In this document: positions 36,001 through 39,000 of the stretch, in pieces
How positions within the stretch are numbered: the stretch's first letter is position 1
Layout: each line of letters begins with the position of its first letter
DNA from: an uncultured Collinsella sp.
GTDB lineage: Bacteria; Actinomycetota; Coriobacteriia; Coriobacteriales; Coriobacteriaceae
Assembly: GCA_900544065.1 (NCBI GenBank)
Contig: UQTR01000002.1
Span: 9,208 to 73,207 of the forward strand
Reading direction: 5' to 3'
DNA: 64,000 bases
Made by a program: the position numbers

Positions 36001-39000
36001 GCCACGAGTGCATCCGCTTCTCTGCCTTTGTGGTCGACGATGACGAATGCGACCGCGGCGTCCACGGCACCAACGAGCGCATCACGCGTCGCGCCTACCT
36101 CCAAGGCATCCGCTTCCTCATCGCCCTGCTCCACACGCTCTAGAATGCGACAAAGGGACTGAGCCGATTTCATCGGTAATGAGACAAAAACTGTCATAGA
36201 AAAAGACTAAGATATCTTAAGAGACATATGCTGGGGTTGGTATTCCATGAACGACTGCGGGCATGTGCCAGACTGCCTCGGCCCCCGGGGAGCGCCCGGG
36301 CAGGTCGCCGTGTGACTGGGGAGGAAATTATGCAGGAGCTCAGAGAGACGACATCTCTACTCGTGAATAATGTTATCGGGGGGGGGGTGTCTCAGCAGGG
36401 AACATCCTGGTAGACACCGGCCGCGCGAGCGGTGGTCCGTCATGTTTTATGACCGTCGTCGCGGACTGCGCCCGATCTCGCCATATGCGATTGTTCTGGC
36501 CCTCGCCGTCGCGCTGACGACGAGTTTCTTCCTGCCGGCCCGTGCGGAAGCGGCGATTGCGGACCACACGGTCGCGACGACCTCGCCCTCGGGGACGACG
36601 ATCAACCTGTTTGATTACTGGGTGAATCCCGATGACCATCTGTCGGTTTCCGGCAACGGCGGCATCAACAAGAACCACCGGTTCCAGTTTAACGACGGCC
36701 AGGGTAGTGAGTCGCTCAACCATTGGACGGGCAACACGAACCCGCAGCCCGGCATTGTCAACAACACGCTTTTAGACGGCTATCCGCAGCTTTCCAAAAC
36801 CTGGCGCGGCGAGTCCCTCCGCTACCTGTTCGATTCTTCTGCCCAGACCGGCAAGACGTCCCATTTTGGCGTGACGGGCCTCCTCAAGGTTCAGAACGGC
36901 TACTACGTCTATGACAGCACCCAAAACTACGCAGCCTACAACGCTGACAAGAATGCCTTCGACATCTATGACACCTGGGGCATTAACAATGTGGGCACTT
37001 CGTCTCACCAGGGTCAGTTCTTCCCGTTCGACGCGGCAGACAAGGTGTTCAAAGAGGAAAACGATCGGCTCGTCCAAAACGGCATCACGGCAGACAACAC
37101 CGGTAATCCGAGCTACAACGACGGCAAGCCCGTCAACCACCACTTCGGCCTGTCGATGTCGTCGCGTTTCGTGCAGCCTGCCGGTGGCAAGACGAACACC
37201 GGAGACGACATGGTGTTCGATTTCGCGGGAGACGATGATGTCTGGGTATTCATCGACGATGTCCTCGTGGGCGATATCGGCGGCATCCATAACATGGCGA
37301 GTCTGAGCATCAACTTCCGCTCGGGCAAAATCCAGATCAACGGATCCGACAAAGGCACGCTCCTCAGCGCGTATCAGACGGCAGGAGTGCAGGATTCGAC
37401 GAAGTGGAACGGCAACACGTTCGCCGACGGCACCAACCACACTCTCAAGTTCTTCTACCTGGAGCGCGGCGCCACCGACTCCAACATGATGCTCAAGTTC
37501 AACCTCGTGACGGTGCCCGAGTCCGACATCATCAAGTTCGACCAGGACGGCAAATTCGTACAGGGTGCCGAGTTCGCACTGTACAAAACAGACGAGAACT
37601 TTACAGATACAACCAATAACAAGAACGAGCTTCTCGGCTCCGGTACCACGGACGAGGCCGGCCACCTAACGCTCACGAACGACGTGGACAACGGCGTCAT
37701 CAACTTCGACGATCTCTACGAGGACTCCGGCAGCAAGTACTACCTCCTGAAGGAGACGCGCGTGCCCGAGGGATATCGCTCGAGTCTCACGGCGACGGAT
37801 GGCAGCATACAGCTCGAGTACGTGCCCACGAGCGACAAGGACGCCGCGGGCGGCGTCATCATCAACCGCGGCGGTATGGACGCGGACAGCGCCGTGTGGC
37901 AGACGGGTGCGTTCGCCGGCGCGAAGGAGACCATCACCGCGCCGTCGACCGTGTACAAGGCGAACGATGACCAGACGATGTCCGACAAGACCGTCGGCCT
38001 GGACTCCGGCATACTGTTCGCCGTGGTGCTCAAGCGCGATAAAAGCGCAAGCACAGATATCCAAGATCAGAACAATTGGTACGCCGTGTCGGGCGACCCA
38101 TCGACGGGAGCGGGATACACCCTCGCCAAGGAGCCGAGCAAAGCCGGCGCTATCGAGGCGGCGAAGAAGGACCTGCACGCCTTCACGCTCAACACGAGCA
38201 GCCAGTACCAGGTAGAGATTCCGTATCTGCCCGGTGACATCTCCAGCTACTACTACATGCTGAGCGGTGATGCCCGCAAGGATGCCGAGTACGCGGTGGC
38301 CATCTACCACACGACGGCAAGCTCTATCGCCAACGCGAATACGGACAACACGGTTCACGTGTTCAGCGATGACCTCCCCAGCGGCGAGAAGAATTTCCAG
38401 CGCCAGTTTGCCACGCGCTTGCTCGTCACGAACATCCAGAATCGCCTGTTCGTGCAGAAGACCGATACCGAGGGCAAGCCCGTTGACGGGGCGAAGTTCG
38501 GCCTGTACAAGGCCGATCAGGTGAAAATGGACGCGAACGGCAAGGTCATGCTCAATGGCGAGCAGACCCCCTTTGACACCCTGACGACGGGGTTGGTCGG
38601 CAACCCGGTTCCGCTCGAAGGTGCGGGCATATTCCCGAATACGAGCGACGGTAACAGGCCGCTCGTGAAGGGGACCTACTTCCTAAAGGAGGTCTCGGCG
38701 CCCAAGGGCTTCCTGCTTAACGACACGCTCACCAAGGTGATTGTGGACGATTACGGCGTCCATGCCGATGCTGGTACGGCCGATGACGGTGTTTCGACGT
38801 TCGTGGGCCCGGGCGCGCTCATGAAGAGCCTGGGCCAGTTTAGCGCAGAGGGCGACATCGACAACACGCTCACGTGGATCAAGGGCCAGCGCCAGACGTC
38901 CGACGGGACGCTCGACGGCAACGACAACCTTTCCTGGAACAATGACGCCAAGGGCGGCGAGGATGAGGTGCACCTCAAGTACGGCGCCAACGGACGTGTC

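What the first reader, a model, noticed from the sequence alone, without database searches (positions are those of the whole stretch)
36318..36444. G10 tract places a strong SD-ATG one nucleotide out of frame with the giant adhesin: phase-variation candidate
Seen: GGGGAGG-AAATT-ATG (ATG at 36330) is the best ribosome-binding context in the region. It opens MQELRETTSLLVNNVIGGG, runs through G10 (36378-36387) and stops at TAG 36411-36413. The adhesin frame is open from 36370 onward. Loss of one G (G9), or gain of two (G12), would fuse the two into MQELRETTSLLVNNVIGGGCLSREHPGRHRPRERWSV-MFYDRRRGLRPISPYAIVLALAV... The annotated ATG 36442 has only a weak GGTGG upstream. Known: homopolymeric tracts of 8 nt or more at the 5' end of surface-protein genes are classical slipped-strand ON/OFF or volume switches. 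Inference: either translation of the adhesin depends on tract length, or the 27-codon uORF modulates initiation at 36442. A homopolymer sequencing error is a trivial alternative.
Basis: partly seen in the sequence, partly recalled or inferred. Interest (0 to 1): 0.7.

Follow-up and report, generated by a model that had tools for sequence, protein, structure and literature searches.

The report
Hypermutable poly-G switch before Collinsella adhesin
A run of ten Gs at the start of a giant cell-wall adhesin gene of the gut bacterium Collinsella is a mutational hot spot: its length differs (G5 to G12) among about 180 otherwise near-identical copies. It is therefore very probably a classical slipped-strand on/off or volume switch, here caught in an out-of-frame setting.

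Summary

- In 80 Collinsella species-representative genomes and 105 gut-metagenome contigs, the tract ranges from G5 to G12 and the surrounding leader is about 97% conserved.
- The tract is the only recurrent indel in 520 nt.
- Sequences with identical 390-nt flanks need at least 23 tract-length changes. The window's own haplotype occurs as G7, G9 and G10.
- No other G/C run longer than 6 exists in the 64 kb.
- Many public gene calls begin MQELRE…, which is the fused form.

The mechanism is less certain.
- All three frames are common: 66/58/47, or 58/43/34 among intact ORFs.
- The signal peptide lies downstream of the tract.
- The inner ATG 36442 has a moderate SD (-5.8 against -10.7 kcal/mol).

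A high/low or three-state switch is therefore as plausible as strict ON/OFF.

Three paralogous adhesin leaders carry a G/C tract each. The closest precedent is the Bifidobacterium breve pilus G-tract switch. I rate this a new member of a known kind, and I found no report of it for Collinsella.

The parts
36144..36329 (+). Conserved intergenic region between the M20 peptidase stop and the upstream start. It presumably holds the promoter and 5' UTR of the adhesin gene.
   Evidence: Majority-base conservation is 0.95-0.99 across 76 genomes, as high as or higher than the flanking coding DNA. No sigma-70 consensus site was found and there was no Rfam hit.
36282..36286 (+). C5 run in the 5' UTR. This is a minor second length polymorphism (C6 in 14 of 76 genomes).
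   Evidence: Gap columns of the alignment.
36318..36324 (+). Strong Shine-Dalgarno sequence GGGGAGG, 5 nt upstream of ATG 36330.
   Evidence: Read. Pairing energy is -10.7 kcal/mol, within the top 0.9% of ATGs. It is intact in 76 of the 79 genome leaders that align; single-base SD variants occur in L016, L050 and L078, and the upstream ATG is ATA in L047.
36330..36413 (+). Upstream ORF as it reads in this window (G10): 27 codons, MQELRETTSLLVNNVIGGGVSQQGTSW, then TAG. At G6, G9 or G12 the same start is fused to the adhesin.
   Evidence: Fused gene calls are seen in public proteins P0004-P0009, P0013-P0016, P0023, P0027 and others.
36370..36372 (+). ATG in the adhesin frame at G10, with no SD. 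It is the mechanical start of the 2768-aa ORF and is probably not used.
   Evidence: SD pairing is +0.3 kcal/mol. The A of this ATG (window 36370) is T (TTG) in 35 of the 76 aligned genome leaders.
36378..36387 (+). Hypermutable poly-G tract, G10 in this window.
   Evidence: Lengths G5-G12 occur across 171 non-duplicate orthologous loci. It is the only recurrent indel in 36100-36620. At least 23 length changes are needed among sequences with identical flanks. It is the only G/C run longer than 6 in the window.
36414..36441 (+). Invariant stretch before the inner start (RPRERWSV in the fused frame). It contains a small GNRA-loop hairpin whose 3' arm holds the SD-like GGTGG.
   Evidence: Nearly invariant in 184 leaders. 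The hairpin is about -14 kcal/mol but no more stable than shuffled sequence. SD pairing is -5.8 kcal/mol.
36442..36555 (+). Inner ATG followed by a canonical Sec signal peptide (MFYDRRRGLRPISPYAIVLALAVALTTSFFLPARAEAA).
   Evidence: The codon is ATG in 78 of 80 genomes and GTG in L055 and L072.
36442..44676 (+). Giant cell-wall adhesin, 2744 aa counted from the inner ATG. It has a fibro-slime/PA14-like head, SpaA domains, 13 Spy0128-type isopeptide (FctA) domains, and a C-terminal LPNMG-type sorting signal with a membrane anchor.
   Evidence: Pfam, NCBIfam and the translation. The ORF is fully open here even though the tract is out of frame.

Best explanation
The G tract is a slipped-strand contingency locus at the 5' end of a giant sortase-type adhesin gene of Collinsella (the C. 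aerofaciens group of gut Coriobacteriia). Replication slippage changes the tract by one or a few Gs much faster than the flanks mutate.

The strong ribosome-binding site and ATG at 36330 lie upstream of the tract. The signal peptide and the 8.2-kb adhesin ORF lie downstream. Tract length therefore decides what happens to ribosomes loaded at the strong site.

- G6, G9, G12: they translate the adhesin, made with a 36-38-residue N-terminal extension ahead of the signal peptide. I predict this is the high/ON state.
- G7, G10 (this window): they stop at 36411-36413, 28 nt before the inner ATG.
- G5, G8, G11: in the window lineage they run over the inner ATG out of frame. In the majority lineage they stop two codons after the tract.

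In the two unfused states the adhesin can only come from the weaker internal start at 36442. I predict this is the low/OFF state, possibly lowered further by polarity on the long untranslated message. This window is in such a state.

Shown: hypermutability, maintenance of the tract, the frame relations, and the relative SD strengths. Inferred: that the fused frame is the high-expression state, and that expression differs between states at all.
For: - Tract lengths. Genomes give G5:1, G6:13, G7:21, G8:13, G9:26, G10:6. Metagenome contigs give G5:5, G6:10, G7:23, G8:35, G9:22, G10:7, G11:1, G12:3.
- The leader is otherwise about 97% conserved, and the tract is the only recurrent indel.
- 13 of 16 flank haplotypes seen more than once carry several tract lengths. 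This needs at least 23 length changes against zero substitutions in 390 nt.
- The tract is retained (at least G5) in all copies, although no other G/C run longer than 6 occurs in the window. Only two other runs of 8 or more occur in 1.46 Mb of related loci.
- Frame consequences were computed directly.
- The upstream SD scores -10.7 kcal/mol against -5.8 for the inner start. In this window GGAGG-N4-10-ATG opens a long ORF in 11 of 19 cases.
- Fused MQELRE... gene calls are common in public data.
- The ORF stays intact in out-of-frame genomes: 37 of 38 genome loci, and all 2744 codons in this window. That fits a reversible switch, not decay.
- There is a modest excess of the fused frame among copies with an intact ORF (58/43/34, p=0.04). 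ORF-interrupted copies are almost never in the fused frame (2 of 20, Fisher p=0.006).
- Three paralogous adhesin leaders independently carry G/C tracts.
- A precedent exists in gut Actinobacteria: the B. breve bbr_0113/bbr_1889 G-tract switch (PMC9187656).
Against: - Over all non-duplicate copies the three frames do not differ significantly from equal (66/58/47, p=0.2).
- The in-frame excess in species representatives (41/28/11) was not reproduced in metagenome contigs (34/32/39).
- The link between ORF interruption and out-of-frame tracts is confounded. Several interruptions look like homopolymer miscalls, so the same contigs may also miscall the tract.
- The inner ATG has a usable SD, as strong as that of the neighbouring M20 gene. 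It is followed by a complete canonical signal peptide, so the unfused states may not be silent.
- The extension shows no third-codon-position bias, so nothing indicates selection on its peptide sequence.
- L047 has lost the upstream ATG (ATA) but keeps the gene.
- In paralogues A and B the strong SD lies downstream of the tract. A frame-independent role for such tracts therefore cannot be excluded.
- No read-level data were available to show heterogeneity within a population.
Confidence: 0.65

Rival explanations
1. This is a uORF volume control. The adhesin is always initiated at ATG 36442. The MQELRE ORF is a regulatory leader whose stop position is set by the tract: upstream of the inner start, overlapping it, or fused to it. 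That position tunes initiation at 36442 by reinitiation, occlusion, or unfolding of the hairpin that holds the GGTGG SD. The result would be graded rather than binary output.
For: - The inner ATG has a moderate SD (-5.8 kcal/mol, equal to the M20 gene start) and a complete signal peptide.
- The inner codon is ATG or GTG in all 80 genomes.
- The 30 nt before it are nearly invariant, and GGTGG sits in the 3' arm of a predicted hairpin.
- All three frames are common.
- L047 lacks the upstream ATG.
- A leader-peptide repeat switch is a known mechanism for a Gram-positive pilus: S. gallolyticus pil1 (PMC3894217).
Against: - In one third of tract lengths the 'uORF' is simply fused, so strong-SD ribosomes necessarily make the adhesin.
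- The uORF stop in the window state lies 28 nt from the inner ATG, which is far for coupling.
- The hairpin is no more stable than shuffled sequence.
- No conserved terminator follows the leader. The T run of the only terminator-like site is absent in most orthologues.
Confidence: 0.2
2. The tract is a neutral mutational hot spot. It sits in a leader where its length has no effect on expression, and the variation is real but without function.
For: - Frames are close to uniform over all copies (66/58/47).
- The extension shows no coding constraint.
- No expression data exist.
Against: - A neutral long G run should decay by contraction or interruption.
- Instead it is kept at the same site in about 184 copies whose adjacent protein has diverged by up to 21%, and only about 4 copies have an interrupted tract.
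- Long G/C runs are otherwise essentially absent.
- Non-homologous leaders of three paralogous adhesins also carry long G/C tracts.
Confidence: 0.1
3. The pattern is an artefact of sequencing or assembly. The apparent length differences, including this window's G10, are homopolymer miscalls.
For: - Some metagenome contigs carry homopolymer-type frameshifts elsewhere in the gene.
- Many contigs have low coverage (names).
- A single-base error, G9 read as G10, in this window cannot be excluded.
Against: - The range spans eight lengths (G5-G12).
- Cultured isolates differ by up to two Gs (G6, G6, G7, G7, G8, G8, G8).
- High-coverage contigs (cov 96, 52, 41) also differ.
- No other site in 520 nt shows recurrent indels.
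Confidence: 0.03
4. The tract is a promoter spacer. It lies between -35 and -10 elements and tunes transcription through spacing.
For: In paralogue A the tract lies between TTGCGT and TATATT. A promoter-spacing role is therefore conceivable for that gene.
Against: - In the window gene no -35/-10 pair flanks the tract.
- The best candidates (TTGCTA ... TAAGCA) would need G10-G12 and lack the conserved final T.
- The tract lies 48 nt downstream of a strong SD-ATG.
Confidence: 0.02

Closest known systems
Bifidobacterium breve UCC2003 bbr_0113 and bbr_1889 intragenic G-tract replication-slippage switch of sortase-dependent pilus genes (Penno et al. 2022, PMC9187656)
   Same: - The host is a gut actinobacterium.
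- The tract is poly-G, of about 9-11 bases.
- A short upstream ORF with strong initiation signals is separated by the tract from a very long LPXTG-type surface-protein ORF (bbr_1889b is 2674 aa; this one is 2744 aa).
- Some annotations split the gene and others fuse it.
- The reference copy is out of frame.
   Different: - In B. breve the Sec signal lies upstream of the tract, and the downstream ORF has neither an SD nor a signal peptide, so OFF is necessarily silent.
- Here the signal peptide and a usable inner ATG lie downstream of the tract, so OFF may be leaky.
- Here the gene stands alone, with no adjacent sortase or pilus operon.
- The genus and class differ (Coriobacteriia).
- Homology of the proteins was not tested.
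Classical poly-G/C contingency loci in surface-protein and LOS genes of Neisseria, Haemophilus, Campylobacter and Helicobacter (e.g. hmbR/hpuAB, PMC3786947; C. jejuni, PMC4965091)
   Same: A homopolymeric G/C tract of at least 7-8 bases lies near the 5' end of a surface-structure gene. Its length varies among strains while the flanks stay constant. The change of frame causes translational ON/OFF.
   Different: Those hosts are Gram-negative pathogens, mostly with AT-rich or moderate-GC genomes. Here the host is a 60% GC Gram-positive commensal. Here the tract precedes the signal peptide, and an alternative in-frame start lies downstream.
Streptococcus gallolyticus pil1 leader-peptide repeat switch with attenuation (Danne et al. 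2014, PMC3894217)
   Same: A repeat inside a short leader ORF upstream of a Gram-positive adhesin/pilus gene changes where the leader peptide ends. This produces heterogeneous expression.
   Different: That system uses GCAGA pentanucleotide repeats and an intrinsic terminator that the ribosome melts. No conserved terminator is present here, and here one frame fuses the leader to the structural gene.
Homopolymeric-tract phase variation in Mycobacterium tuberculosis (glpK, ESX-1; PMC10334774)
   Same: The host is a high-GC actinobacterium, and short G/C runs act as reversible frameshift switches that can be detected by comparing many genomes.
   Different: Those tracts lie within metabolic or secretion genes and are mostly 7 bases long. 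They are not at the 5' end of an adhesin.

Membership tests
Simple-sequence-repeat (homopolymeric tract) contingency locus | A homopolymeric tract far longer than the genome background, placed in or just before the 5' end of a gene. | tested here: met
   G10 lies at 36378-36387, 48 nt after a strong SD-ATG and 54 nt before the signal-peptide ATG. It is the only G/C run longer than 6 in 64 kb.
Simple-sequence-repeat (homopolymeric tract) contingency locus | Tract length is polymorphic among close relatives while the flanking sequence is constant (hypermutability). | tested here: met
   Lengths G5-G12 occur in 171 non-duplicate loci. At least 23 changes are needed among identical 390-nt flanks. 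It is the only recurrent indel in the region.
Simple-sequence-repeat (homopolymeric tract) contingency locus | A length change alters the reading frame or promoter geometry so that expression switches. | tested here: inconclusive
   The frame relation to the strong start is shown in silico. The effect on protein output is not measurable here, and an inner start with a moderate SD could bypass the switch.
Simple-sequence-repeat (homopolymeric tract) contingency locus | High-frequency, reversible switching within a clonal population. | not testable with these tools
   No reads or single-colony data were available. Recurrence of the same lengths on different haplotypes is only indirect evidence of reversibility.
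Simple-sequence-repeat (homopolymeric tract) contingency locus | The controlled gene encodes a surface-exposed or host-interaction product. | tested here: met
   The protein has a fibro-slime head, SpaA domains, 13 FctA isopeptide domains, and a signal peptide plus C-terminal sorting signal.
Bifidobacterium-type G-tract switch in sortase-dependent pilus genes | The G tract separates a short upstream ORF with good initiation signals from a long LPXTG ORF. | tested here: met
Bifidobacterium-type G-tract switch in sortase-dependent pilus genes | The Sec signal is encoded upstream of the tract, and the downstream ORF lacks an SD and a signal peptide. | tested here: not met
   The hydrophobic signal peptide (36442-36555) and an SD-like GGTGG lie downstream of the tract. 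The contrast is.
Bifidobacterium-type G-tract switch in sortase-dependent pilus genes | The gene is the first of a pilus operon with a dedicated sortase. | tested here: not met
   The neighbours are an ABC transporter and M20 peptidase upstream, and Abi_2, prfA and prmC downstream. No sortase or minor pilin is adjacent.
Leader-peptide repeat plus attenuation (S. gallolyticus pil1 type) | An intrinsic terminator lies between the leader ORF and the structural gene and is melted by the leader-translating ribosome. | tested here: not met
   The only terminator-like site (36419-36437) has a weak stem, and its T run (ATGTTTT) is ATGTCTT in most orthologues. The hairpin is no more stable than shuffles.
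Promoter-spacer homopolymer switch | -35 and -10 hexamers flank the tract. | tested here: not met
   No promoter-like site was found in 35800-36800 on either strand.

The most novel reading that the evidence does not exclude
Collinsella, one of the most prevalent gut Actinobacteria, may run a multi-locus 'phasome'. In this reading, several paralogous giant isopeptide-domain adhesins each sit behind their own poly-G/C tract, giving combinatorial variation of the cell surface. In this particular gene the tract lies between a strong start and a second, weaker start that precedes the signal peptide. It would then act as a three-state dial (fused and strong, uORF stopping upstream, uORF overlapping or stopping early) rather than a binary frameshift switch.
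Probability: 0.3. Interest if true: 0.6.

Novelty: new member of a known kind. Interest (0 to 1): 0.45.

Why it matters
Collinsella aerofaciens-group bacteria are among the commonest human gut Actinobacteria, and how they attach and vary between strains is poorly understood. A hypermutable tract on a 2,744-residue wall-anchored adhesin, with similar tracts on its paralogues, has three practical consequences.

- Surface phenotype can differ between cells of one clone.
- Automatic annotation of these genes is unstable. Public calls start at three different ATGs depending on tract length.
- Presence or absence of the gene in metagenomes does not predict whether it is expressed.

The finding also extends the Bifidobacterium pilus G-tract switch to a second class of gut Actinobacteria. 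It offers a simple test case for asking whether the host environment selects tract length.

Tried and rejected
- **Known RNA element in the leader.** Rfam found nothing at gathering thresholds in the window. At E<=1 in 36100-36560 it gave only a spurious miRNA hit. The leader fold is not unusual (z=-0.23). Rejected.
- **Promoter or terminator flanking the tract.** No promoter-like site was found, and the one terminator-like site is not conserved. Rejected.
- **Exact-protein look-ups.** The adhesin from either start is not on record. The upstream M20 peptidase gave only two short contigs that end before the tract. Unhelpful.
- **Plasmid search.** No match.
- **In-frame enrichment as proof of the ON state.** It was significant in species representatives (41/28/11, p=2e-4). 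It was not reproduced in metagenome contigs (34/32/39). After de-duplication and an intact-ORF filter it is only marginal (p=0.04). I treat it as suggestive only.
- **Codon-position bias in the N-terminal extension.** No third-position excess was seen, and the signal peptide shows none either, so the test is uninformative.
- **Open-frame argument.** 34 stop-free codons at this GC content have a chance probability of about 0.33 (my own calculation). Not evidence.
- **P0001 (MLSGGGVSAGNIL...).** I first read this as G11. On re-derivation it is G9 plus a further 1-nt insertion in the C run at 36471-36473. It is a single short Logan contig and probably an error, so I did not use it.
- **L076.** Unrelated sequence is joined exactly at the tract, with no match elsewhere. 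It could be an insertion or a chimera. Unresolved.
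Full report
**1. What is in the window**

- GGGGAGG lies at 36318-36324, followed by AAATT and ATG at 36330.
- The G run is 36378-36387, ten bases.
- The ORF from 36330 reads MQELRETTSLLVNNVIGGGVSQQGTSW and stops at TAG 36411-36413.
- The long ORF runs to 44676.

The adhesin frame opens at 36370 with an ATG that reads through the tract (MLSGGGCLSRE...). 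That ATG has no ribosome-binding site (+0.3 kcal/mol).

I rebuilt the leader with G5 to G12.
- G6, G9, G12: the 36330 start is fused to the adhesin.
- G7, G10: a 26-27-codon ORF ends 28 nt before ATG 36442.
- G5, G8, G11: a 60-62-codon ORF overlaps ATG 36442 and ends at 36515-36517.

The tract is not a chance feature. It is the only G or C run longer than 6 in the 64 kb, and the next longest G run is 5.

**2. The gene and its host**

Counted from ATG 36442, the product is 2744 aa. Its parts are:
- a canonical signal peptide;
- a fibro-slime/PA14-like head;
- SpaA domains;
- 13 Spy0128-type isopeptide (FctA) domains;
- a C-terminal LPNMG-type sorting signal with a membrane anchor.

Relatives are all from Collinsella, human-gut Coriobacteriia. 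The gene stands alone between an ABC transporter/M20 peptidase unit and Abi_2, prfA and prmC. No sortase is adjacent.

**3. The decisive comparison**

A protein-based scan of one genome per species returned 80 orthologous loci at 79-99% amino-acid identity in the head domain. A DNA scan of metagenome contigs using the SD-ATG pattern returned 107 more.

The leader is about 97% conserved, at least as well as the flanking coding DNA. Within 36100-36620 the tract is the only site with recurrent length variation. The one exception is a minor C5/C6 polymorphism at 36282-36286.

Tract lengths were as follows.

| Set | G5 | G6 | G7 | G8 | G9 | G10 | G11 | G12 |
|---|---|---|---|---|---|---|---|---|
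| Genomes | 1 | 13 | 21 | 13 | 26 | 6 | 0 | 0 |
| Metagenome contigs | 5 | 10 | 23 | 35 | 22 | 7 | 1 | 3 |

Further points from the comparison:
- Among sequences whose 150 nt upstream, leader and 201 nt downstream are identical, 13 of 16 multi-member haplotypes carry several lengths. This needs at least 23 tract changes against zero substitutions.
- The window's own haplotype occurs as G7 (L004), G9 (L005) and G10 (the window). Near-identical L003 and L006 have G6 and G8.
- Cultured isolates have G6, G6, G7, G7, G8, G8 and G8.
- In 1.46 Mb of these loci, only two other G/C runs of 8 or more exist outside the leader tract.

The tract is hypermutable, and it is maintained.

**4. Is the fused frame the ON state?**

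Evidence for:
- The upstream SD pairs at -10.7 kcal/mol, within the top 0.9% of ATGs in the window. The inner start pairs at -5.8.
- GGAGG followed by ATG opens a real long ORF in 11 of 19 cases in this window.
- Many public gene calls begin with MQELRE... fused to the signal peptide.
- The ORF is intact in out-of-frame genomes (37 of 38) and over all 2744 codons here. That fits a reversible state.
- Among non-duplicate copies with an intact ORF, the fused frame is modestly over-represented (58/43/34, p=0.04).
- Copies with secondary ORF interruptions are almost never in the fused frame (2 of 20, Fisher p=0.006).

Evidence against, or limiting:
- Over all non-duplicate copies the frames are 66/58/47 (p=0.2).
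- The strong excess in species representatives (41/28/11) was not reproduced in metagenome contigs (34/32/39).
- Several interruptions look like homopolymer miscalls. The interruption/frame association may therefore reflect contig quality.
- The inner start's SD is as strong as that of the neighbouring M20 gene. It is followed by a complete signal peptide, so the unfused states may be leaky.
- The extension shows no third-position bias.
- L047 has ATA in place of the upstream ATG, and L055 and L072 have GTG at the inner start.

My conclusion has three tiers.
- The switch is real, about 0.95.
- It probably controls expression, about 0.85 over all mechanisms.
- The specific model, strong-start fusion giving high output and the other two frames giving low or OFF output, is the best single reading at 0.65.

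**5. Alternatives examined**

- No Rfam family matches the leader.
- The leader fold is unremarkable.
- The small hairpin that contains the inner GGTGG is no more stable than shuffled sequence.
- No promoter pair flanks the tract.
- The one terminator-like site depends on a T run that most orthologues lack. A pil1-type attenuation mechanism (PMC3894217) is therefore not supported.
- A purely neutral hot spot is unlikely, for two reasons. Long G runs are otherwise absent, yet this one is kept in every copy. Non-homologous leaders of paralogous adhesins also carry such tracts.

**6. Paralogues (found in passing)**

Three paralogous giant adhesins, at 43-49% identity in the head domain, also have leader tracts.
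- Paralogue A: G9/G10, or GC-G7, about 80 nt upstream of GGGGAGG-ATG. It lies between TTGCGT and TATATT. G9 and G10 occur with identical flanks.
- Paralogue B: G10, 45 nt upstream of its SD-ATG, plus a C7 run further up.
- Paralogue C: a C11 run at the contig end, 185 nt upstream of the ATG.

In A and B the strong SD lies downstream of the tract, unlike the window gene. The mechanism may therefore differ between paralogues. Many paralogue A alleles are split by a frameshift or a nonsense codon.

**7. Comparison with known systems and novelty**

The closest precedent is the G-tract replication-slippage switch of the B. breve UCC2003 pilus genes bbr_0113 and bbr_1889 (PMC9187656).

Shared features:
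- the host is a gut actinobacterium;
- the tract is poly-G;
- a short upstream ORF precedes a surface-protein ORF of about 2,700 aa.

Differences:
- in B. breve the Sec signal lies upstream of the tract;
- the B. breve downstream ORF has no start signals;
- the B. breve gene heads a sortase operon.

All three of those differing features were tested here and not met.

More broadly this is a classical homopolymeric contingency locus. Four full-text searches of the held library found no paper linking Collinsella to phase variation or to G tracts. That is absence of evidence within that library only. I rate the finding as a new member of a known kind. It is solid and useful for annotation and strain biology, but it is not conceptually surprising.

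Noticed in passing
L190 1412-1420; L193 1113-1119; L199 1225-1233; L200 510-519; L203 152-160; L206 511-519: A paralogous giant adhesin lies downstream of a dCMP-deaminase/glycerate-kinase gene and is about 45% identical in the head domain. It carries its own G9/G10 (or GC-G7) tract about 80 nt upstream of GGGGAGG-ATG, between TTGCGT and TATATT, which is a possible promoter-spacer arrangement. G9 and G10 occur with identical flanks.
   Followed up: partly
L197 1147-1156 and 1098-1104; L191 1-11: Two further paralogous adhesin leaders carry tracts. One has G10 45 nt upstream of its SD-ATG plus a C7 run about 50 nt further up. The other is on a contig that begins with C11, 185 nt upstream of the ATG, so the assembly breaks at the tract.
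   Followed up: partly
L200 2505-2508; L206 and L207 about 2692-2694; L193 3186-3209; L190 3528-3570: Paralogue A is split into a 470-700-aa head ORF and a 1,800-3,400-aa stalk ORF in every contig examined. The splits are at different sites: frameshifts, and a CAG->TAG nonsense codon in HLTNV*NRLFVQK. The same split allele recurs in several samples. This suggests frequent real inactivation, but it could also be a bias in how the hits were retrieved.
   Followed up: partly
window 36282-36286: The C5 run in the 5' UTR (CTCGGCCCCCGGGG) is C6 in 14 of 76 orthologous genomes. This is a second, minor length polymorphism 44 nt upstream of ATG 36330. It lies next to the palindrome CCCGGG-GAGCG-CCCGGG.
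   Followed up: no
L050 2378-2386: In one genome the Shine-Dalgarno GGGGAGG has become an uninterrupted G9 through an A->G change. This creates a second long G run directly in the ribosome-binding site.
   Followed up: no
L047 (upstream start), L055 and L072 (inner start), L076 1-85: Rare start-codon variants occur: the upstream ATG is ATA in L047, and the inner ATG is GTG in L055 and L072. In L076, unrelated sequence is joined exactly at the tract, with no match to any other fetched locus. It could be an insertion or a chimeric contig.
   Followed up: partly
window 36411-36413 and orthologues: The stop that ends the short ORF in the +1 frame is TAG in the window lineage and TGA in most others, which is two adjacent substitutions. 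A few sequences have TAA, and about 10 have TGG (no stop). Whether the stop is under selection is unclear.
   Followed up: no
window 36144-36329: The whole 186-nt intergenic region upstream of the SD is as conserved across Collinsella species as the flanking coding DNA, or more so (0.95-0.99 majority base). No recognisable sigma-70 promoter or Rfam element is present, so there is unexplained regulatory constraint.
   Followed up: partly
window 45018-46061: An Abi_2 (abortive-infection-like) gene lies directly downstream of the adhesin, and a HicB-like antitoxin lies at 49638-50129. These are small defence or toxin-antitoxin elements within an otherwise housekeeping neighbourhood.
   Followed up: no
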